Positions 2,021-11,256 of a DNA stretch of 19,882 nt are shown one piece after another. The position numbers and the translations under genes were made by a program. Position 1 is the stretch's first letter. Each line of letters starts with the position of its first letter. The DNA comes from a virus: UHGV virus genome UHGV-0342044, one strand, 5' to 3'. A model generated the notes under the pieces. That model worked only from the letters and a program-made list of their open reading frames with translations. It did not search any database and was not told the DNA's origin.

Positions 2021-3073
2021 ATGAAAAATACTGTAAAAATAAACAGTGTTGATTTAATCAACGCTGATTGCCTGCATTTTATTCAGTCCCTGCCTGATGA
2101 TTCCATTGACCTGATTGTTACCGATCCGCCGTACTTCAAGGTGAAACCCAACGGCTGGGACAATCAGTGGAAAGGGGACGAAGATTACCTTAAGTGGCTG
2201 GACCACTGTCTGGCCCAGTTCTGGCGGGTGTTAAAACCTGCCGGAAGCCTTTACCTGTTCTGTGGGCATCGCCTGGCATCTGATATTGAGATCATGATGC
2301 GTGAACGTTTCAACGTGCTTAACCATATCATCTGGGCGAAGCCGTCCGGACGTTGGAATGGGTGTAATAAAGAAAGTCTGCGCGCATATTTTCCTGCCAC
2401 AGAGCGCGTTCTGTTTGCTGAACATTACCAGGGGCCATATCGTGGCAAAAGTGATGGCTATGCGGCAAAAGAAAGGGAACTCAAACAGCACATAATGGCA
2501 CCGCTGATATCGTATTTCAGGGATGCTCGTGCCGAACTGGGTATAACGGCAAAACAAATTGCCGAAGCCACAGGTAAGAAAAATATGGTTTCCCACTGGT
2601 TTGGTGCCAGTCAGTGGCAGTTGCCGAATGAGGCTGACTATCGGAAGTTACAGGCACTGTTTTCCCGTATAGCGGCAGAGAAGTTTCAGGAACAACAACT
2701 GGAACAACCACACCACCAGCTGGTGGCATCTTATGATTCACTGAATCGCAAATATTCTGAATTGCTGGATGAGTTTAAATCTCTCCGGCGCTATTTCTCC
2801 GTATCAGTCTCCGTGCCTTATACCGATGTCTGGACGCATAAGCCCGTTCAGTTCTACCCGGGTAAACATCCGTGCGAGAAACCGGCGGATATGCTCCGGC
2901 AAATAATCAATGCCAGTAGTCGCCCTGGTGATCTGGTTGCTGATTTCTTTATGGGATCCGGTTCCACAATAAAAGCAGCAATGGCGCTGGGGCGTCGGGC
3001 GTTAGGTGTTGAACTTGAGTCAGAGCGGTTTAATCAGACGGTGAAAGAGGTAAGTGAACTGGTGGGGAAATAA
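2021..3073 (+). CDS. DNA methyltransferase, beta-class (N6-adenine or N4-cytosine)
   Basis: 350-aa ORF with catalytic DPPY motif near the N-terminus (IVTDPPYF) and the AdoMet-binding FxGxG motif near the C-terminus (DFFMGSGST). This circularly permuted order is typical of beta-class amino-methyltransferases. A central insertion carries an HTH-like segment (ITAKQIAEATGKKNMVSHWF). Confidence 0.85.
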   Translation: MKNTVKINSVDLINADCLHFIQSLPDDSIDLIVTDPPYFKVKPNGWDNQWKGDEDYLKWLDHCLAQFWRVLKPAGSLYLFCGHRLASDIEIMMRERFNVLNHIIWAKPSGRWNGCNKESLRAYFPATERVLFAEHYQGPYRGKSDGYAAKERELKQHIMAPLISYFRDARAELGITAKQIAEATGKKNMVSHWFGASQWQLPNEADYRKLQALFSRIAAEKFQEQQLEQPHHQLVASYDSLNRKYSELLDEFKSLRRYFSVSVSVPYTDVWTHKPVQFYPGKHPCEKPADMLRQIINASSRPGDLVADFFMGSGSTIKAAMALGRRALGVELESERFNQTVKEVSELVGK

Positions 3074-3488: not shown

Positions 3489-3965
3489 ATGCAGGTACTA
3501 AATTCCCAGCGTAAAGCTTTCCTCGATATGTTGGCGTGGTCAGAAGGAACGGATAACGGGCGACAGCCAACCCGCAATCACGGCTACGACGTTATTGTAG
3601 GTGGTGAGTTATTCACGGATTACTCCGATCATCCTCGCAAACTTGTCACGCTAAACCCCAAACTCAAATCAACAGCCGCCGGACGTTACCAGCTTCTTTC
3701 ACGCTGGTGGGATGCTTACCGTAAACAGCTTGGCCTGAAAGATTTTTCTCCAGAAAGCCAGGACGCTGTAGCTCTGCAGCAGATTAAAGAGCGTGGCGCT
3801 TTACCGATGATTGATCGCGGTGATATTCGTCAGGCTATCGACCGTTGCAGCAATATCTGGGCTTCACTACCGGGCGCTGGTTATGGTCAGTTCGAGCATA
3901 AAGTTGACAGCCTGATTGCAAAATTCAAAGAAGCAGGCGGAACGGTCAGAGAGATTGAGGTATGA
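3489..3965 (+). CDS. R: endolysin, lambda R-type lytic transglycosylase
   Basis: 158-aa product is near-identical from memory to lambda R ([20 protein letters not shown]...[23 protein letters not shown]...) including the catalytic Glu in AWSEGTD. AAGGAG Shine-Dalgarno at 3476-3481. Confidence 0.95.
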
Positions 3966-4399
3966 GCAGAGTAACCGCGATTATCTCCGCTCTGGTTATT
4001 TGTATCATCGCCTGCCTGTCATGGGCTGTTAATCATTACCGTGATAACGCCATCGCCTACAAAGAACAGCGCGATAAGGCCGCATCCATTATCGCTGACA
4101 TGCAGAAACGTCAACGTAATGTAGCTGAACTCGATGCCAGATATACAAAGGAGCTTGCTGATGCTAACGCGACTATCGAAAGTCTCCGTGCTGATGTTTC
4201 TGCTGGGCGTAAGCGCCTGCAAGTCGCCGCCACCTGTGCAAAGTCAACGACCGGAGCCAGCGGCATGGGCGATGGAGAAAGCCCAAGACTTACAGCAGAT
4301 GCTGAACTCAATTATTACCGTCTCCGAAGTGGAATCGACAGGATAACCGCGCAGGTTAACTACCTGCAGGAGTACATCAGGACGCAATGTCTGAATTAA
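3962..4399 (+). CDS. Rz: i-spanin Rz
   Basis: Start overlaps the R stop (ATGA). N-terminal transmembrane segment [31 protein letters not shown] is near-identical to lambda Rz, followed by a coiled-coil periplasmic domain. Confidence 0.9.
4161..4346 (+). CDS. Rz1: o-spanin Rz1 (lipoprotein), embedded in the +1 frame of Rz
   Basis: ATG at 4161 preceded by AAGGAG (4148-4153). Product has a signal peptide with lipobox (LLGVSAC) followed by a Pro-rich segment ([13 protein letters not shown]), the hallmark of Rz1. It lies entirely within Rz in another frame, as in lambda. Confidence 0.8.
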
Positions 4400-4402
4400 C
4401 AG

Positions 4403-4428
4403 AGCCAGCTTAATTGCTGGCTTTTTTG
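4403..4428 (+). terminator. rho-independent terminator after the lysis cassette
   Basis: AGCCAGC (4403-4409) / GCTGGCT (4416-4422) stem with loop TTAATT, followed by TTTTTT (4423-4428), directly after the Rz stop. Confidence 0.6.
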
Positions 4429-4749
4429 TTTCCGGGGCCAATCAATTAAGCACACAGTATCGTGACACAATCATGCGTCGCATCGTCGCCGTATTCCCGT
4501 ATTAACAGAGACCGTAGCCCGACGGGGAACTCCTTCTGCGCGAGTATGCGGGAATAATCAAAAACGATGCACACCGGGTTTTTACCGCGTTTATGGTTCG
4601 CGGGTTTGTCCCTCATGCTCGCCAGTCCTGTGCGGGGGTGGAAGAAACAGGACACTTACACAGATTCTTGTGGGCACGATGCTATGTCTTTCTGGATTAT
4701 CTCGATGCCATTCATGCAAGGCGCTGTATCAGACGTTCGTCAGAGCTGT

Positions 4750-4810
4750 CAGGCTGACGGGTCCTCCCTGTGGGGTGGCCTGCCACGGGGCGGGAGCGTC
4801 GCGGAAAAAG
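4750..4810. other. cos site (cosQ-cosN region), lambda-like
   Basis: The sequence GACGGGTCCT...CCACG-GGGCGGGAGCGT-CGCGG aligns from memory with the lambda right-end / cosN / left-end junction (ACGGGTCCTTTCCGGTGATCCGACAGGTTACG-GGGCGGCGACCT-CGCGGG). It sits about 175 bp upstream of the small terminase gene. Confidence 0.6.
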
Positions 4811-4884
4811 GCTAGTTTTTGCATTTTTATCGGCCACCATCATCTTTGCATCTTATTGATTATTAATGGTTATTTGTTTTTTGT

Positions 4885-4951
4885 ATGTCGAATTGAGTGT
4901 TTTTTGTTCGACATCGAACGCGTTTTCTTAAAGTTGTTCGCACGATGCATG
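4885..4951. repeat. cosB-like region with TCGA-core inverted repeats (candidate small-terminase binding sites)
   Basis: ATGTCGAA (4885-4892) and its reverse complement TTCGACAT (4907-4914); imperfect palindrome GTTCGA-CA-TCGAAC (4906-4919); a related GTTCGCACG at 4936-4944. All lie between the predicted cosN and the small terminase start. Confidence 0.35.
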
Positions 4952-4973
4952 TTTAAAGCTCTCCGGAGGAAAT

Positions 4974-5465
4974 ATGGATCATGAGTTGAAAAACCTGGTG
5001 CTGAATATTAATCAACTGGCGGCTTTATCTGGTCTGCACCGCCAGACTGTCGTGGCAAGACTGAAAAACATTCGTCCCGCTGGTGGACATGACAAACTCA
5101 AGCTATACCGGTTGACCGATATTCTGACTGAATTTATGGGGTTACCACCGCCGGTTGCTGAGGGCGAAATGGATCCACATGAACGCAAAGCCTGGTATCA
5201 GTCTGAACGTGAGCGTCTTAAGTTCGAACAGGAAACGGCACAACTCATTCCGGCCAGTGATGTCAGACGGGAGTTTGCCATCTGGGCAAAAGCGGTCGTG
5301 CAGGTGCTGGAGACATTACCGGATATTCTGGAACGTGACTGCGGCCTGCAGCCTGCCGCTGTGAGCCGTGTTCAGTCCATTATTGATGATCTGCGCGATC
5401 AGATAGCCCTGCGGGTGACCGAAGCAGGTGCGGATGATGAGGAGGAATTACAGCAGGAGGAGTAA
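4974..5465 (+). CDS. terminase small subunit (Nu1-like, N-terminal HTH)
   Basis: GGAGGA Shine-Dalgarno at 4965-4970. 163-aa product has an N-terminal HTH-like segment (LNINQLAALSGLHRQTVVARLKN) and an acidic C-terminus. Stop overlaps the large terminase start (TAATG), and it lies immediately downstream of cos. Confidence 0.75.
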   Translation: MDHELKNLVLNINQLAALSGLHRQTVVARLKNIRPAGGHDKLKLYRLTDILTEFMGLPPPVAEGEMDPHERKAWYQSERERLKFEQETAQLIPASDVRREFAIWAKAVVQVLETLPDILERDCGLQPAAVSRVQSIIDDLRDQIALRVTEAGADDEEELQQEE

Positions 5466-7567
5466 TGCTGAATCAGGAAACCGCAAAGGCAGCACGAACC
5501 GATTCAGGTTATATCCTTCGCGCACCGAGACGAATGCTGGTTGCTGATGCCGTTGCTCAGTATATGCGGGTGCCCATGGGGGCCGGGAACTCAGTCCCGT
5601 GGGATCCGCTGGTGGCACCGTATGTTATTGAGCCGATGAACTGCCTGGCCTCGCGTGAATACGACGCAGTGATATTTGTTGGCCCGGCACGAACTGGCAA
5701 GACTATCGGCCTGATTGACGGCTGGGTGATTTACAACGTGATTTGCGATCCTGCGGATATGTTGATCATTCAGATGACGGAGGAAAAAGCCCGCGAACAC
5801 TCCAAAAAACGACTTGCCAGAACGTTTCGCGTCAGCCCGGAAGTGGTCAGTCGCCTGAGTCCGAACAAAAATGACAACAACGTTTATGACAGAACATTCC
5901 TTGCTGGCAACTACCTGAAAATCGGCTGGCCGTCAGTCAATATCATGTCCTCATCAGATTATAAATGCGTGGCGCTGACGGATTATGACCGTTTTCCGGA
6001 AGATATTGATGGCGAGGGGGATGCCTTCTCTCTTGCCTCAAAACGTACCACCACATTTATGTCCAGTGGTATGACGCTGGTGGAGAGTTCCCCCGGCAGG
6101 GATGTGAAGGATGTGAAATGGCGACGGACTTCACCGCATGAGGCTCCACCAACCACGGGGATACTGTCGCTCTATAACCGTGGCGATCGCCGTCGCTGGT
6201 ACTGGCCCTGTCCACACTGTGGTGAGTATTTTCAGCCCTGCGGCGATGTGGTTGCTGGTTTCCGTGATATTGCCGATCCCGTGCTGGCAAGTGAGGCGGC
6301 TTATATTCAGTGTCCTTCCTGTTCAGGACGGATTATGCCTGAACAAAAACGTGAGCTGAACGGACGTGGGGTCTGGTTGCGGGATGGTGAATCCATCAAT
6401 GCGGATGGCAGTCGTTATGGTGATCCCCGACGCTCACGTATTGCGTCATTCTGGATGGAGGGTCCGGCAGCTGCTTACCAGACACTCTCGCAACTCGTTT
6501 ACAAACTGCTTACTGCAGAACAGGAATACGAGACAACCGGAAGTGAAGAAACACTCAAGACGGTTATCAATACCGACTGGGGATTACCTTATCTTCCCCG
6601 TGCCAGCATGGAGCAACGAAAAAGTGAACTGCTTGAACAGCGGGCAGAGCCAGTTCCTTCCCGCAGTGTGCCGGATGGCGTTAATTTCCTGGTGGCGACA
6701 GTTGATGTGCAGGCGGGACGTCATCGCCGTTTTGTGGTTCAGGTAACGGGCTATGGCAGCCGTGGCGAACGCTGGATTATTGATCGTTACAACATCACGC
6801 AGTCATTGCGCGGTGACAGCGACGGGGAGAGCCAGCGAATTGATCCGGCCAGCTATCCGGAAGACTGGGATGTCCTGCTGACGGATGTTTTTCATAAAAG
6901 CTGGCCGCTGGCCTCCGATCCTTCTCAACAAATGCGACTGATGGCAATGGCGGTGGACTCCGGCGGTGAAGACGGGGTCACTGATAATGCCTATAAATTC
7001 TGGCGTCGTTGCCGTCGTGATGGCCTTGGTAAACGTATTTACCTGTTTAAGGGCGACAGCATCCGGCGCGCAAAACTGATCACCCGTACATTCCCTGATA
7101 ACACCGGACGAACGGGCCGACGGGCGCAGGCCGCAGGTGATGTGCCGCTCTGGCTTCTTCAGACGGATGCCCTGAAAGACCGGGTGAATAACGCGTTATG
7201 GCGTGACTCTCCAGGTCCCGGCTATGTGCATTTCCCTGACTGGCTGGGGAGCTGGTTTTACGACGAACTGACGTATGAAGAGCGGAGTAGTGACGGGAAA
7301 TGGAGTAAGCCGGGTCGCGGTGCCAACGAAGCTTTTGACCTGATGGTGTATGCCGAGGCTCTGGTCATTCTGCATGGATACGAAAAGATCCGCTGGCCGG
7401 ATGCACCGGAGTGGGCGAGCCGGGAAACCTGGCTGGAGTGTGTCCCGGACAGTACCGAACCGTCACCCTCACCGGAACCGGTATCCACGCCTGTTAAAAA
7501 ACAAAAACGGAAGAAAACAGTAACTGACGATGTTAACCCCTGGCTGACTTCCGGAGGATGGTTATGA
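5465..7567 (+). CDS. terminase large subunit (GpA family)
   Basis: 700-aa product with Walker A motif (VGPARTGKT) and the CPHCGE zinc-ribbon-like motif (WYWPCPHCGEYF) also present in lambda gpA. Translationally coupled to the small subunit. Confidence 0.9.
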   Translation: MLNQETAKAARTDSGYILRAPRRMLVADAVAQYMRVPMGAGNSVPWDPLVAPYVIEPMNCLASREYDAVIFVGPARTGKTIGLIDGWVIYNVICDPADMLIIQMTEEKAREHSKKRLARTFRVSPEVVSRLSPNKNDNNVYDRTFLAGNYLKIGWPSVNIMSSSDYKCVALTDYDRFPEDIDGEGDAFSLASKRTTTFMSSGMTLVESSPGRDVKDVKWRRTSPHEAPPTTGILSLYNRGDRRRWYWPCPHCGEYFQPCGDVVAGFRDIADPVLASEAAYIQCPSCSGRIMPEQKRELNGRGVWLRDGESINADGSRYGDPRRSRIASFWMEGPAAAYQTLSQLVYKLLTAEQEYETTGSEETLKTVINTDWGLPYLPRASMEQRKSELLEQRAEPVPSRSVPDGVNFLVATVDVQAGRHRRFVVQVTGYGSRGERWIIDRYNITQSLRGDSDGESQRIDPASYPEDWDVLLTDVFHKSWPLASDPSQQMRLMAMAVDSGGEDGVTDNAYKFWRRCRRDGLGKRIYLFKGDSIRRAKLITRTFPDNTGRTGRRAQAAGDVPLWLLQTDALKDRVNNALWRDSPGPGYVHFPDWLGSWFYDELTYEERSSDGKWSKPGRGANEAFDLMVYAEALVILHGYEKIRWPDAPEWASRETWLECVPDSTEPSPSPEPVSTPVKKQKRKKTVTDDVNPWLTSGGWL

Positions 7568-7776
7568 ACCAGAATGATATCGAAGCCATGATTCAGCGTT
7601 ATACGGAAGCTGAAATGGCGGTGCTGGACGGAAAATCCGTCACCTTTAATGGTCAGCAGATGACCATGGAAAACTTATCTGAGATCCGGCAGGGACGGCA
7701 GGAGTGGGAGCGCCGCCTTGCGGCTCTGATTACACGACGACGGGGGCATCCCGGGTACCGGCTGGCGAGGTTCTGA
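7564..7776 (+). CDS. head-tail joining protein (gpW-like)
   Basis: About 70-aa ORF between terminase and portal. ATG at 7564 overlaps the terminase stop (ATGA); GGAGG at 7553-7557. C-terminal RRRGHPGY resembles the lambda W C-terminus. Confidence 0.55.
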   Translation: MNQNDIEAMIQRYTEAEMAVLDGKSVTFNGQQMTMENLSEIRQGRQEWERRLAALITRRRGHPGYRLARF

Positions 7777-9284
7777 TGGCAATTCTTGATGATGTGATTG
7801 GCGTTTTTTCACCAGGATGGAAAGCGGCAAGGCTGCGTTCCCGTGCGGTGATCCAGGCTTATGAGGCCGTAAAAACGACGCGGACACATAAAGCCCGGCG
7901 GGAAAACCGAACTGCCGACCAGTTAAGCCAGTACGGGGCCGTGTCGTTACGTGAGCAGGCCCGTTACCTTGATAACAACCACGATCTGGTCATTGGTGTA
8001 TTTGACAAGCTGGAAGAACGGGTGGTGGGGAAAAACGGGATTATTGTCGAGCCACATCCGGTATTACGCAATGGGGCCATTGCCCGTGATCTGGCAGCGG
8101 AGATACGCACCCGATGGAGTGAATGGTCTGTCAGTCCGGAAGTCACCGGGCAGTTTACCCGTCCGATGCTGGAACGTCTGATGCTGCGTACCTGGCTGCG
8201 CGATGGTGAGGTGTTTGCCCAGATGGTTTCCGGGCGCATAAACAGCCTGACGCCTTCTGCCGGTGTTCATTTCTGGCTGGAGGCGCTCGAGCCGGACTTT
8301 ATTCCCATGACCAGTGATGAGAGCAACAGGCTGAATCAGGGCGTGTTTGTTGATGACTGGGGGCGTCCCGAAAAATATCTGGTGTATAAAAGCCGTCCCG
8401 TATCCGGGCGGCAGATGGAAACCAAAGAAGTGGATGCAGAGCGAATGCTGCATCTTAAATTTGTTCGCCGTCTGCACCAGATGCGCGGGACGTCTTTGTT
8501 GTCCGGTGTGCTGATCCGCCTCAGTGCCCTGAAAGAGTATGAAGATTCTGAGCTGACTGCAGCAAGGATCGCCGCTGCTCTGGGGATGTACATCCGCAAA
8601 GGCGACGGACAGAGCTATGAAACGGATGGTAATGACAGCAAGGAGAATGAACGCGAGCTTACCATTCAGCCAGGCATTATTTACGACGATCTGAAACCCG
8701 GCGAAGAAATCGGAATGGTGAAGTCGGATCGCCCCAATCCTAATCTTGAAACTTTTCGTAATGGTCAGTTGCGTGCCGTGGCGGCGGGTAGTCGTCTGAG
8801 TTTTTCCAGTACAGCGCGCAACTATAACGGCACTTACAGCGCCCAGCGTCAGGAGCTGGTTGAATCCACTGATGGCTACCTGATCCTGCAGGACTGGTTT
8901 ATTGGTGCCGTCACCCGCCCGATGTATCGTGCCTGGCTGAAACAGGCTGTGGCATCCGGTGTTATCAGGCTACCCCGCGATCTTGATCGTTCTTCACTGT
9001 ATACCGCGGTGTATTCCGGACCGGTGATGCCGTGGATTGACCCTGTTAAGGAGGCTGAGGCCTGGAAAATTCAGATTCGTGGTGGAGCGGCGACAGAATC
9101 AGACTGGGTACGTGCAGGTGGTCGTAATCCGGATGATGTCAAACGTCGGCGCAAGGCAGAAATTGATGAAAACCGCAAGCTGGATCTGGTATTTGATACC
9201 GATCCTGCCAGTGATAAAGGAGGCAGCAGTGCCGCAACGAAACGACAGGAGCCGCAGCACACCGACGACCAGTCCGAAGAATAA
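7776..9284 (+). CDS. portal protein
   Basis: About 500-aa ORF immediately after the W-like gene. ATG at 7776 overlaps the W stop (TGATG). Position and size are typical of a portal; the ORF track's upstream extension from 7704 overlaps W. Confidence 0.85.
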   Translation: MAILDDVIGVFSPGWKAARLRSRAVIQAYEAVKTTRTHKARRENRTADQLSQYGAVSLREQARYLDNNHDLVIGVFDKLEERVVGKNGIIVEPHPVLRNGAIARDLAAEIRTRWSEWSVSPEVTGQFTRPMLERLMLRTWLRDGEVFAQMVSGRINSLTPSAGVHFWLEALEPDFIPMTSDESNRLNQGVFVDDWGRPEKYLVYKSRPVSGRQMETKEVDAERMLHLKFVRRLHQMRGTSLLSGVLIRLSALKEYEDSELTAARIAAALGMYIRKGDGQSYETDGNDSKENERELTIQPGIIYDDLKPGEEIGMVKSDRPNPNLETFRNGQLRAVAAGSRLSFSSTARNYNGTYSAQRQELVESTDGYLILQDWFIGAVTRPMYRAWLKQAVASGVIRLPRDLDRSSLYTAVYSGPVMPWIDPVKEAEAWKIQIRGGAATESDWVRAGGRNPDDVKRRRKAEIDENRKLDLVFDTDPASDKGGSSAATKRQEPQHTDDQSEE

Positions 9285-9297
9285 TTCCTGGTTCAGG

Positions 9298-11256
9298 ATG
9301 CAGGCTGGTCACCAGAGTGACGCGGATATTTATATTTATGACGAGATTGGTTTCTGGGGTGTTACAGCGAAGCAGTTTATCAGTGATCTGAATGCACTGG
9401 GCGATATCACCCACATTAATCTCCATATCAATTCACCGGGTGGCGATGTCTTTGAAGGCATCGCCATTTTTAATGCGCTGAAAACACATGGTGCGTCCAT
9501 TACCGTTTATGTCGACGGTGTGGCGGCGTCAATGGCGTCGGTCATTGCGATGGTGGGAAACCCGGTCATTATGCCGGAAAACACCTTCATGATGATTCAT
9601 AAACCATTTGGCTTTACGGGCGGTGATGCGGAGGACATGCGCACCTATGCTGACCTGCTCGATAAGGTTGAGGCGGTTCTGTTACCCGCTTATGCACAGA
9701 AAACCGGGAAAACCACCGATGAAATTGCTGCCATGCTGGCGGATGAGACCTGGATGTCTGGTGCCGAATGTCTGGCACATGGATTTGCTGATCAGGTGAC
9801 GCCAGCCGTTAAGGCAATGGCATGTATTCAGTCAAAACGTACAGAGGAATTTAAAAAGATGCCGGAATCCATTCGAAACATGATTACTCCGCCACGCAAC
9901 AGTGCTCCACGCGTACAGGATGATGAACCAGCAGCCTCCCGGACGCCAGTGCAGGCAGCAGCACCCGTGGTGGATGAAAACAGTATCCGTGCGCAGGTAC
10001 TGGCAGAGCAAAAAGCGCGTGTAAACGGTATTAATGATCTGTTTGCCATGTTTGGCGGGCGTTATCAGACGCTGCAGGCTCAGTGTCTTGCCGATCCTGA
10101 ATGTTCGCTGGAGCAGGCCCGCGAAAAGCTGTTGAACGAGATGGGGCGCGAGTCCACGCCATCCAATAAAAATACCCCGGCTCATATTTATGCCGGTAAC
10201 GGTAATTTTGTGGGGGACGGGATCCGCCAGGCGCTGATGGCGCGTGCCGGATTTGAAAAAACCGAACGTGATAATGTCTACAACGGGATGACCCTGCGTG
10301 AATATGCCCGTATGTCACTGACTGAACGGGGTATTGGGGTTTCCAGTTATAACCCGATGCAGATGGTCGGTGCGGTGTTCACACACAGTACGTCTGACTT
10401 CGGTAATATTCTGCTGGATGTTGCGAACAAAGCCATTCTGCAGGGCTGGGAAGATGCTCCTGAAACCTATGAACAGTGGACGCGGAAAGGTCAGTTGTCT
10501 GATTTTAAAATTGCCCATCGTGTGGGTATGGGGGGCTTCAGTGCTCTGCGTCAGGTGCGTGAAGGGGCGGAATATAAATACGTCACCACCGGAGATAAAC
10601 AGGCCACTATTGCACTGGCGACCTATGGCGAGCTGTTCAGTATCACCCGTCAGGCCATTATCAATGATGATCTGAATATGCTGACCGATGTCCCGATGAA
10701 ACTGGGCCGTGCGGCGAAATCCACTATTGCCGATCTGGTTTATGCCATTCTGACGTCTAACCCGAAAATCTCCACAGATAATGTAAGTCTGTTCGATAAA
10801 GCGAAACATGCAAACGTACTGGAGAGCGCTGCAATGGACGTGGCATCGCTGGATAAAGCCCGCCAGTTGATGCGCGTTCAGAAAGAGGGGGAGCGTCATC
10901 TGAATATTCGTCCTGCGTTCGTACTGGTACCGACGGCGATGGAGTCTGTTGCTAACCAGGTCATTCGCTCCTCAAGTGTCAAGGGGGCTGACATTAACGC
11001 CGGTATTATTAACCCGGTGAAAGATTTTGCGACCGTTATTGCAGAGCCTCGTCTTGATGATAACAGCCAGACCACCTTCTACCTGGCTGCGTCAAAAGGC
11101 TCCGATACAATTGAAGTGGCTTATCTCAACGGTGTGGATACGCCATATATTGATCAGATGGAGGGCTTCAGTGTGGATGGCGTGACAACGAAAGTGCGTA
11201 TTGACGCCGGTGTCGCGCCAGTTGATCACCGCGGTCTGGTGAAATGTACGGCGTAA
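9298..11256 (+). CDS. fused prohead protease (ClpP/S49-like) - scaffold - major capsid protein
   Basis: N-terminal ClpP-like protease domain (IYIYDEIGFWG...INSPGGDVFEGIAIFNAL...ASMASVIAMVG), a central Ala/Gln-rich scaffold-like linker, and a C-terminal capsid-like domain. Start placed at the first ATG after the portal stop. The open frame extends back to 9037 inside the portal gene, so the start is uncertain. Confidence 0.75.
   Translation: MQAGHQSDADIYIYDEIGFWGVTAKQFISDLNALGDITHINLHINSPGGDVFEGIAIFNALKTHGASITVYVDGVAASMASVIAMVGNPVIMPENTFMMIHKPFGFTGGDAEDMRTYADLLDKVEAVLLPAYAQKTGKTTDEIAAMLADETWMSGAECLAHGFADQVTPAVKAMACIQSKRTEEFKKMPESIRNMITPPRNSAPRVQDDEPAASRTPVQAAAPVVDENSIRAQVLAEQKARVNGINDLFAMFGGRYQTLQAQCLADPECSLEQAREKLLNEMGRESTPSNKNTPAHIYAGNGNFVGDGIRQALMARAGFEKTERDNVYNGMTLREYARMSLTERGIGVSSYNPMQMVGAVFTHSTSDFGNILLDVANKAILQGWEDAPETYEQWTRKGQLSDFKIAHRVGMGGFSALRQVREGAEYKYVTTGDKQATIALATYGELFSITRQAIINDDLNMLTDVPMKLGRAAKSTIADLVYAILTSNPKISTDNVSLFDKAKHANVLESAAMDVASLDKARQLMRVQKEGERHLNIRPAFVLVPTAMESVANQVIRSSSVKGADINAGIINPVKDFATVIAEPRLDDNSQTTFYLAASKGSDTIEVAYLNGVDTPYIDQMEGFSVDGVTTKVRIDAGVAPVDHRGLVKCTA

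What the first reader, a model, noticed from the sequence alone, without database searches (positions are those of the whole stretch)
4750..4810. Lambda-like cos site with a predicted non-lambda 12-nt cohesive end
The sequence around 4785-4804 aligns with the lambda cos junction and shares the flanking ACGGGTCCT, ACG and CGCGG blocks. The 12-nt segment corresponding to the cohesive end reads GGGCGGGAGCGT instead of GGGCGGCGACCT, which is 4 substitutions in 12. Lambda, 21, phi80 and 82 are remembered as sharing identical cohesive ends, so a divergent overhang with a GpA-family terminase would be notable and would affect in vitro packaging compatibility. The lambda sequence is recalled from memory, and nicking positions are inferred by analogy.
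Basis: partly seen in the sequence, partly recalled or inferred. Interest (0 to 1): 0.55.

Follow-up and report, generated by a model that had tools for sequence, protein, structure and literature searches.

The report
Common lambda-like cos site variant
This is the DNA-packaging cut site (cos) of a very common E. coli lambda-like prophage; its sticky end differs from lambda's at four bases, but only in the half of the site already known to vary freely, so it is ordinary.

Summary
Window 4759-4801 reads GGGTCCT(cosQ)-20 nt-CG|GGGCGGGAGCGT|CG. Against the lambda reference ends, the 12-mer (4788-4799) differs at positions 7, 8, 9 and 11.

It lies where a cos should: after holin/endolysin/Rz and a terminator, 186 nt before a small-terminase gene. 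A GpA-family large terminase, a lambda-family portal and a ClpP-capsid fusion follow.

The "notable" reading is not supported.
- Published work from the Feiss laboratory reports that bp 7-12 of cosN vary commonly among lambda-like phages (N15, phiD326, Gifsy-1, mEp213/LLS), and that lambda terminase tolerates such changes.
- The window's end is Gifsy-1's end plus one change (C7G).
- The same 12-mer opens the GenBank records of phage cdtI (2007) and phage Tritos.
- It is the majority variant of its terminase clade in an IMG/VR sample (65 of 126 sites).
- This cos type is present in 2076 of 5426 complete E. coli genomes.
- A plaque-forming phage, PhiR47_1, has an almost identical cos and an identical TerL.

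The terminase is a distant relative of lambda's: TerL is 25% identical to gpA, and TerS is Pfam DUF1441, related to Nu1 only at profile level.

The nick positions remain inferred; I found no physical end mapping. Verdict: real, functional, already known in kind, low interest.

The parts
4401..4424 (+). Terminator-like hairpin after the Rz gene. It marks the end of the lysis cassette, just upstream of the cos region.
   Evidence: 9-pair stem followed by a T run. Rz at 3962-4399 by Pfam Phage_lysis.
4759..4765 (+). cosQ-equivalent GGGTCCT. In lambda this is the packaging-termination signal.
   Evidence: Identical to lambda's 7-mer. It lies 20 nt before the CG that flanks the top-strand nick, against 21 nt in lambda. 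Feiss et al. describe cosQ as highly conserved among lambda-like phages.
4786..4801 (.). cosN, 16 bp: CG | 12 bp | CG. The predicted nicks fall between 4787/4788 on the top strand and opposite 4799/4800 on the bottom strand.
   Evidence: Alignment with the lambda ends. The flanking CG dinucleotides and bp 1-6 are nearly invariant in 71 distinct related sites, where bp 1-12 were left free in the search pattern. The nick positions are inferred by analogy, not mapped.
4788..4799 (+). Predicted 12-nt 5' cohesive end GGGCGGGAGCGT. It differs from lambda GGGCGGCGACCT at positions 7, 8, 9 and 11, and from Gifsy-1 GGGCGGCAGCGT at position 7 only.
   Evidence: The phage cdtI and Tritos records begin with exactly these 12 bases, and the Tritos record ends with ...CCACG.
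4800..4820 (+). Conserved block to the right of the nick, CGCGGAAAAAGGCTAGTTTTT. It corresponds in position to lambda CGCGGGTTTTCGCTATTTAT.
   Evidence: Strongly conserved across the clade where the search pattern did not fix it: in the 38-site alignment (first pattern), and at positions +27 to +33. In one search most of +13 to +26 was fixed by the pattern.
4834..4844 (+). Candidate R3-like small-terminase binding element CCACCATCATC, at +47 to +57 from the left end.
   Evidence: A conserved CATCAT-rich block at this position in 38 related cos regions. The position matches lambda R3 (bp 50-65) and N15 R3 (bp 48-60) as given in PMC9026076. Binding is inferred.
4849..4861 (-). Candidate IHF site (I1-equivalent), AATCAATAAGATG, matching 12 of 13 positions of WATCAANNNNTTR.
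   Evidence: In 36 of 38 relatives the best IHF-consensus match lies at this same position and strand. Fifteen of those are exact, against about 1% exact matches in shuffles. The window has no exact match here.
4885..4914 (.). Inverted repeat ATGTCGAA (4885-4892) / TTCGACAT (4907-4914). These are candidate R2-like and R1-like elements in opposite orientation, as in lambda cosB.
   Evidence: 8-nt arms, fully complementary. Both arms are conserved in relatives and in Gifsy-2. Their function is inferred.
4974..5465 (+). Small terminase subunit, 163 aa, Pfam DUF1441. It starts 186 nt after the left end; lambda Nu1 starts 190 nt after.
   Evidence: Pfam DUF1441 at 4.6e-44 plus a weak N-terminal HTH hit. 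No BLASTP similarity to Nu1. Profile-profile hhalign against Nu1 homologues gives probability 82% and E 1e-5 over nearly the full length. Homologues are annotated as small terminase in the cdtI, Gifsy-2 and Tritos records.
5465..7567 (+). Large terminase subunit, 700 aa, GpA family. This is the enzyme predicted to nick cosN.
   Evidence: Pfam GpA_ATPase and GpA_nuclease. 25% identical to lambda gpA, E 6e-19. 70% identical to Gifsy-2 TerL, 88% to cdtI TerL and 100% to PhiR47_1 TerL.
7704..11256 (+). Lambda-family portal gene and a ClpP protease-major capsid fusion gene. This is the Gifsy-2-type head module into which the DNA is packaged.
   Evidence: Pfam Phage_portal_2, CLP_protease and Phage_capsid_4.

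Best explanation
This is the working cos site of a lambdoid prophage of the mEp460 / cdtI / PhiR47 type.

Proposed mechanism. During late lytic growth the small terminase (DUF1441 protein, 4974-5465) binds cosB, the region between 4800 and 4973. cosB holds R-like repeats around a probable IHF bend site. This binding positions the GpA-family large terminase (5465-7567) on cosN (4786-4801). TerL then nicks the two strands 12 bp apart, just after the conserved CG on each strand. That leaves a 5' overhang GGGCGGGAGCGT on the left end and its complement on the right end. DNA is packaged rightwards, into the head encoded downstream. Packaging stops at the next cos, where cosQ (GGGTCCT, 4759-4765) is needed. 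After injection the ends anneal and are ligated into a circle.

The four differences from lambda lie in bp 7-12. In lambda-like phages this half of the end is not under sequence selection, because TerL is anchored there by TerS bound at cosB.

Shown here: the sequence anatomy, its conservation pattern, the gene context, the linkage to one terminase lineage, and its presence in plaque-forming phages. Inferred: the exact nick positions, the 12-nt length of the overhang, and the protein-binding sites in cosB.
For: - Base-for-base alignment with the lambda reference ends. The composite motif is absent from 200 shuffles.
- Gene context: Q, holin, endolysin-sized ORF, Rz, terminator, cos, terS, terL, portal, capsid.
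- With bp 1-12 left free in the search pattern, 71 distinct related sites keep bp 1-6 almost invariant and hold only 0.55-0.96 bits at bp 7-12. This matches the functional asymmetry published for lambda-like cosN (PMC4669245).
- The window's 12-mer accounts for 65 of 126 sites in that sample. It sits next to a DUF1441 TerS in 53 of 54 cases. Lambda's 12-mer sits next to a Nu1-type TerS in 41 of 43 cases.
- The phage cdtI and Tritos records are opened exactly at this 12-mer.
- Tritos makes virions and plaques (PMC9928086).
- PhiR47_1 has a cos differing at 2 of about 215 bases between cosQ and the terS start (4 of the 241 aligned columns overall) and a 100% identical TerL. It is used as a plaque-forming temperate phage.
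- cosB resembles lambda's R3-I1-R2-R1 layout. There is a conserved block at +47 to +57, an IHF-consensus site fixed in position in 36 of 38 relatives, and an inverted repeat at +98 to +127.
- TerS is a remote homologue of Nu1.
Against: - I found no physical mapping of virion ends for this cos type. The cdtI paper and the Vahanian 2017 survey are not held in the library. The Tritos record was derived from a prophage sequence, so record boundaries may themselves be set by analogy with lambda.
- TerL is only 25% identical to gpA, so identical nicking geometry is an extrapolation.
- Gifsy-2, whose TerL is 70% identical to the window's, has a different sequence at the corresponding place, with 14 nt rather than 12 nt between CCACG and CGCGG.
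- The window covers about 20 kb, so I cannot say whether this particular prophage is complete.
- The structure prediction for TerS was of low confidence (pLDDT 53) and was not used.
Confidence: 0.88

Rival explanations
1. It is a cos site, but the nicks are not at the lambda-analogous positions. The stagger could be shifted or of a different length, so the real overhang would not be GGGCGGGAGCGT.
For: TerL is only 25% identical to gpA. Gifsy-2, in the same TerL clade, has 14 nt between the conserved CCACG and CGCGG blocks. I found no physical end data.
Against: The CG dinucleotides on both sides and bp 1-6 are conserved to the base between the two terminase clades, and variation is confined to the six positions predicted by the lambda model. 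The mEp460_4F5 record, whose phage comes from a collection of cultured coliphage isolates (the sequencing template is not stated in what I read), has a 3-nt loss exactly at the predicted bottom-strand nick. That looks like a mis-join at a physical end.
Confidence: 0.07
2. It is an intact-looking cos inside a defective prophage that no longer packages DNA in this host. It would then be a relic, or a site used only by a co-resident helper phage.
For: This cos type is present in 2076 of 5426 complete E. coli genomes, up to 7 copies per genome, and many lambdoid prophages in E. coli are defective. Some IMG/VR contigs carry cos copies beside truncated terL genes. The window shows only part of the prophage.
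Against: terS, terL, portal and capsid genes are full-length ORFs with full-length Pfam matches. The cos and TerL are virtually identical to those of the plaque-forming phage PhiR47_1. In any case this rival concerns the state of the prophage, not what the site is.
Confidence: 0.04
3. It is the cos of a phage-inducible chromosomal island (PICI) or another satellite that borrows a helper phage's terminase. Such islands carry near-lambda cosQ and cosN.
For: PICI cos sites have cosQ and cosN nearly identical to those of lambda-like helpers (PMC9026076).
Against: PICI cos sites are followed by an rpp gene and lack R repeats. Here the site is followed by its own terS, terL, portal, capsid and tail genes and is preceded by a lysis cassette.
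Confidence: 0.01

Closest known systems
Bacteriophage lambda cos (cosQ-cosN-cosB), J02459
   Same: The 7-bp cosQ is identical. ACG precedes and CGCGG follows the 12-mer in both. Bp 1-6 are identical, and 8 of 12 positions overall. The distance from the left end to the terS start is similar (186 nt against 190 nt). The proposed cosB layout is the same (R3, IHF site, inverted R2, R1). A GpA-family TerL follows in both.
   Different: Positions 7, 8, 9 and 11 differ. The cosQ-cosN spacer is 1 nt shorter. The cosB sequences are unrelated. TerL is 25% identical to gpA. TerS is Pfam DUF1441 with no BLASTP similarity to Nu1. The head module is the Gifsy-2 type, a ClpP-capsid fusion.
Phage cdtI (AB285204 / NC_009514) and phage Tritos (OV696610, prophage 3 of E. 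coli LF82)
   Same: Both have the identical 12-mer GGGCGGGAGCGT, and both records are opened exactly at it. The flanks CCACG and CGCGGAAAAAGGCTAGTTTTT are the same. cdtI TerL is 88% identical to the window's.
   Different: cosB and TerS differ from about +35 onwards. TerS is only about 42% identical and starts about 235 nt from the end in contigs of this subtype. This suggests a different packaging specificity behind the same cosN.
Salmonella phage Gifsy-1 cos (NC_010392)
   Same: Its end is GGGCGGCAGCGT, which differs from the window's end at position 7 only. The differences from lambda at positions 8, 9 and 11 are shared (and Feiss et al.).
   Different: Gifsy-1 has a lambda/21-type Nu1, gpA and head genes. 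The window has the DUF1441 TerS and Gifsy-2-type module.
mEp213 / LLS putative cos (GGGCGGCGCGCT)
   Same: Same TerL/TerS clade and Gifsy-2-like head. The end was inferred by similarity to lambda and varies only in the right half (PMC12315714; 8-10 IMG/VR sites).
   Different: The right half is CGCGCT rather than GAGCGT. cosB is shorter, with terS starting 129 nt from the end.
N15 / phiD326 cohesive ends
   Same: They are natural right-half variants of the lambda end, differing at positions 9 and 12. Genetic tests showed that lambda and N15 terminases cut either cosN equally well.
   Different: The substitutions are different, cosB is simpler (a single R), and TerL is 65% identical to gpA.

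Membership tests
[quoted passage not shown] | A 12-bp segment with significant identity to GGGCGGCGACCT, with the left half conserved | tested here: met
   8 of 12 positions are identical, and bp 1-6 are all identical. Bp 1-6 are nearly invariant in 71 distinct relatives although the search pattern left them free.
[quoted passage not shown] | Conserved CG dinucleotides flanking both nick positions | tested here: met
   CG at 4786-4787 and at 4800-4801. PMC4669245 describes these as highly conserved.
[quoted passage not shown] | cosQ (GGGTCCT) about 20 bp upstream of cosN | tested here: met
   Located at 4759-4765. The spacer is 20 nt, against 21 nt in lambda.
[quoted passage not shown] | cosB between cosN and terS, with R sequences (R2 inverted) and an IHF site | tested here: inconclusive
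   There is a conserved block at +47 to +57, a positionally conserved IHF-consensus site (36 of 38 relatives, 15 exact), and an inverted repeat at +98 to +127. Protein binding cannot be tested here.
[quoted passage not shown] | Virion DNA physically ends in 12-nt 5' overhangs at this site | not testable with these tools
   Only indirect evidence: the cdtI and Tritos records start at 4788-equivalent positions. The papers that might hold end mapping are not held in the library.
GpA-family large terminase (Pfam PF05876 and PF20454) | Both the ATPase and the nuclease domains score above Pfam's cut-offs | tested here: met
   242 bits against a cut-off of 25.6, and 288 bits against a cut-off of 22.5. 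25% identity to lambda gpA, E 6e-19.
Nu1-family small terminase | Sequence membership in the Nu1 family | tested here: inconclusive
   Pfam assigns DUF1441 and lists no Nu1 family hit at E up to 0.01. BLASTP against Nu1 finds nothing. hhalign of 58 DUF1441 homologues against 43 Nu1 homologues gives probability 82% and E 1e-5 over residues 9-151 against 2-162. The AlphaFold single-sequence model was too poor to use.
PICI (satellite) cos | cos followed by rpp rather than terS/terL, and no R repeats | tested here: not met
   terS, terL, portal, capsid and tail genes follow the site.

The most novel reading that the evidence does not exclude
Right-half cosN variants might not be neutral drift. They could act as cohesive-end compatibility groups that travel with terminase lineages: GGGCGGGAGCGT with DUF1441 TerS in 53 of 54 sites, and the lambda end with Nu1 in 41 of 43 sites. 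DNA cut at one type of cos and ended at another, for example in polylysogens or during satellite hijacking, would then circularise poorly. That would give co-resident lambdoid prophages some isolation from each other. The evidence here does not exclude this. However, simple physical linkage of cosN to terS and terL explains the association equally well.
Probability: 0.1. Interest if true: 0.35.

Novelty: already known. Interest (0 to 1): 0.1.

Why it matters
It matters little beyond annotation. The result lets the prophage be oriented and its packaging type called: cos, with a predicted 12-nt 5' overhang GGGCGGGAGCGT.

It also corrects the idea that all coliphages with lambda-type cos sites share lambda's exact sticky end. 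In E. coli genomes a second cos type with this end is very widespread (38% of complete genomes).

There is one practical point. Oligonucleotides or linkers designed against the lambda cohesive end would mismatch this end at 4 of 12 bases. Packaging specificity is expected to be set by the unrelated cosB and TerS, not by cosN.

Tried and rejected
- Chance resemblance. Rejected: the composite motif is absent from 200 shuffles.
Rejected: it matches J02459 exactly.
- Literature search for the exact 12-mer. It found only an unrelated mammalian paper. The lambda 12-mer search led to the LLS/mEp213 paper and, through it, to the Feiss references.
- Attempts to read Vahanian 2017 and Asakura 2007 failed because they are not held. 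I could therefore not confirm whether this exact variant is tabulated there, or whether the cdtI ends were mapped.
- The Tritos paper gives no end mapping. The Mathieu 2020 paper gives none for mEp460_4F5.
- An exact IHF consensus is not present in the window's cos region. A 12-of-13 match is, and positional conservation in relatives rescued the idea.
- A single-sequence AlphaFold model of TerS was too poor (pLDDT 53) for a fold search and was dropped. A PDB sequence search gave nothing significant. hhalign run in a script replaced both.
- The ORFs that overlap cos (4567-4815 and 4670-4984) have no Pfam hits and are probably not genes.
- The PICI reading was rejected on gene content.

Full report
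**Observation**

I read 4500-5100 and fetched both ends of the lambda reference J02459. Joining lambda's right and left ends and setting them beside the window gives:

- Lambda: ACGGGTCCT-TTCCGGTGATCCGACAGGTT-ACG|GGGCGGCGACCT|CGCGG
- Window 4757-4804: ACGGGTCCT-CCCTGTGGGGTGGCCTGCC-ACG|GGGCGGGAGCGT|CGCGG

The 12-mer at 4788-4799 differs from lambda at positions 7, 8, 9 and 11. The spacer from GGGTCCT to the CG before the nick is 20 nt, against 21 nt in lambda. The composite pattern occurs once in the window and in none of 200 shuffles.

**Context**

Upstream lie:
- a DUF968 gene
- antiterminator Q (485-865)
- a DNA methylase gene (2021-3073)
- an S-type holin gene
- an endolysin-sized ORF
- Rz (3962-4399)
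- a terminator-like hairpin at 4401-4424

Downstream lie:
- a 163-aa DUF1441 protein (4974-5465)
- a 700-aa protein with both GpA domains (5465-7567)
- a small head-tail connector-sized ORF
- a lambda-family portal gene
- a ClpP-capsid fusion gene

Tail-sized ORFs follow. This is the standard lambdoid order of lysis genes, cos, terS, terL and head genes, with a Gifsy-2-type head module.

**How divergent the enzymes are**

TerL is 25% identical to lambda gpA (E 6e-19). It is 70% identical to Gifsy-2 TerL, 88% to cdtI TerL, 100% to PhiR47_1 TerL, and about 41% to the TerL of phage Chi and its relatives.

TerS shows no BLASTP similarity to Nu1. However, an hhalign comparison run in a script relates them. 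It set 58 distinct DUF1441 homologues against 43 distinct Nu1 homologues, all taken from loci next to cos sites. The result was probability 82%, E 1e-5, over almost the full length and beginning at the N-terminal helix-turn-helix. So "GpA-family terminase" is right, but this is a distant branch.

**Related sequences**

- The cos region matches 25 phage records. Three plaque-forming ECOR-derived phages (PhiR40_1, PhiR47_1, PhiR55_1) are 97.8% identical over 4600-5000. PhiR47_1 differs at 2 of about 215 bases between cosQ and the terS start (4 of the 241 aligned columns overall). These phages were used in plaque assays in PMC13190303.
- The records of phage cdtI (AB285204, circular record) and Tritos (OV696610, linear record) start exactly at GGGCGGGAGCGT. 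Tritos also ends at ...CCACG. Tritos makes virions and plaques. Its record was derived from the LF82 prophage, so the boundary was probably set by analogy with lambda.
- A 3.2-kb query (4400-7600) matches 4182 of 5426 complete E. coli genomes. The 66-nt cos core matches 2076 genomes at 90% identity or better. The lambda-type core matches 4486 genomes.

**Natural variation**

I ran two pattern scans of IMG/VR. Each stopped at its 120-locus limit, so both are samples, not censuses.

In the first scan the left half was fixed and bp 7-12 were free:

| 12-mer | Sites | Terminase type |
|---|---|---|
| Lambda's 12-mer | 64 of 131 | lambda-type TerL wherever TerL was in range |
| The window's 12-mer | 14 of 131 (second commonest) | window-type TerL in 12 of 14 (no TerL in range for the other 2) |

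Some twenty other right-half variants also occurred.

In the second scan all 12 bases were free, and cosQ, the CG flanks and the right-hand block were fixed. The window's 12-mer accounted for 65 of 126 sites. Across 71 distinct contexts, bp 2-5 were invariant and bp 1 and 6 nearly so. Bp 7-12 carried only 0.55-0.96 bits.

Cross-tabulating by the adjacent TerS:

| 12-mer | Adjacent TerS |
|---|---|
| GGGCGGGAGCGT | DUF1441 type in 53 of 54 sites |
| Lambda's end | Nu1 type in 41 of 43 sites |

Gifsy-1 carries GGGCGGCAGCGT. The window's end is therefore Gifsy-1's end plus C7G.

**Literature**

- Feiss et al. 2015 (PMC4669245) define lambda-like phages by 12-base 5' ends similar to lambda's. They state that differences at bp 7-12 are common: N15 and phiD326 at positions 9 and 12, and Gifsy-1 at 8, 9 and 11.
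- The same paper reports that cosQ and the CG flanks are conserved, that lambda TerL nicks right-half variants efficiently, that lambda and N15 terminases show no cosN specificity, and that a two-base end mismatch lowers yield about four-fold.
- The 2022 review PMC9026076 gives the R3-I1-R2-R1 layout and the positions of R3.
- The LLS paper (PMC12315714) infers GGGCGGCGCGCT for LLS and mEp213, which belong to the same terminase and head clade as this window. It cites the dedicated survey by Vahanian et al. 2017.
- I could not read that survey or the cdtI paper.

**cosB**

An alignment of 38 related cos regions shows, to the right of the nick:
- a strongly conserved CGCGGAAAAAGGCTAGTTTT block
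- a CATCAT-rich block at +47 to +57, where lambda and N15 have R3
- a TTGAT core
- an inverted pair, ATGTCGAA / TTCGACAT, at +98 to +127; this pair is also present in Gifsy-2

The best IHF-consensus match falls at the same place and on the same strand in 36 of 38 relatives. Fifteen of those matches are exact, against about 1% in shuffles. The window itself matches 12 of 13 positions. This parallels lambda's cosB, but protein binding is inferred.

**Mechanism**

- TerS, probably with IHF, binds cosB and anchors TerL on cosN.
- Nicks 12 bp apart leave 5'-GGGCGGGAGCGT on the left end.
- Packaging runs rightwards and terminates at the next cosQ/cosN.
- The ends anneal after injection.

The anatomy, conservation, lineage linkage and occurrence in live phages are shown. 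The nick positions and the binding sites are inferred.

**Verdict**

The site is real and almost certainly functional. The divergent overhang is an expected, already described kind of variation, and this very sequence already heads public phage records. Novelty: already known. Interest: low.

Noticed in passing
L034 (IMG/VR 2574179916_000005): 67-121, 8202-8256, 10738-10792. Also L059, L069, L036 and L142.: Several IMG/VR contigs carry two or three cos-pattern matches within about 12 kb. In L034 the first cos is followed by terS and a terL truncated at residue 333, the second has no terS after it, and the third is followed by a different terS (70% identical). These could be tandem prophage remnants or cos-bearing satellites.
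   Followed up: partly
L005/L006 (LR595868 mEp460_4F5, record ends): The linear record is opened 5 nt to the left of the predicted top-strand nick. It also lacks 3 nt (TCG) exactly at the predicted bottom-strand nick: GGGCGGGAGCG-CGG instead of GGGCGGGAGCGTCGCGG. This looks like an assembly mis-join at physical ends and is weak indirect support for the nick position.
   Followed up: no
L127 (Gifsy-2, NC_010393) about 780-830: Gifsy-2 has a TerL 70% identical to the window's and keeps the cosB inverted repeat TGTCGAA/TTCGACA. Its cos differs, however. It has GGTACT in place of cosQ GGGTCCT, and 14 nt (GGTGGCTTCGGGCT) between CCACG and CGCGG instead of a GGGCGG-type 12-mer. The end structure of Gifsy-2 may therefore differ from the rest of the clade.
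   Followed up: no
window 4974-5465: The Pfam family DUF1441 sits in the small-terminase position next to cos in 100 sampled loci. It aligns with Nu1 homologues at profile level (hhalign probability 82%). The DUF label could be replaced by 'Nu1-like small terminase'.
   Followed up: partly
window 4769: The T in the cosQ-cosN spacer (CCCTGTGG) is a G (CCCGGTGG) in PhiR47_1 and in most of the relatives aligned. The best E. coli genome matches listed for the 66-nt core are 98.5% identical (one mismatch); 17 records fall in the 99%-or-better band.
   Followed up: no
window 2021-3073 and 3489-3965: A 350-aa N6/N4 DNA methylase gene sits in the late region between Q and the holin gene. The 158-aa ORF in the endolysin position has no Pfam hit at E up to 0.01.
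   Followed up: no
cdtI, Tritos, L095 and L125 compared with window 4822-4973: Phages with the identical cosN 12-mer fall into at least two cosB/TerS subtypes. In one, terS starts 186 nt from the end. In the other it starts about 235 nt from the end, with TerS only 42% identical. The same cohesive end is thus combined with different presumptive packaging specificities.
   Followed up: partly
window 7704-9284 and 9037-11256: The listed portal and ClpP-capsid ORFs overlap by about 250 nt. The capsid fusion gene probably starts at a later codon than the mechanical ORF call; Tritos is annotated with a similar overlap of about 150 nt.
   Followed up: no
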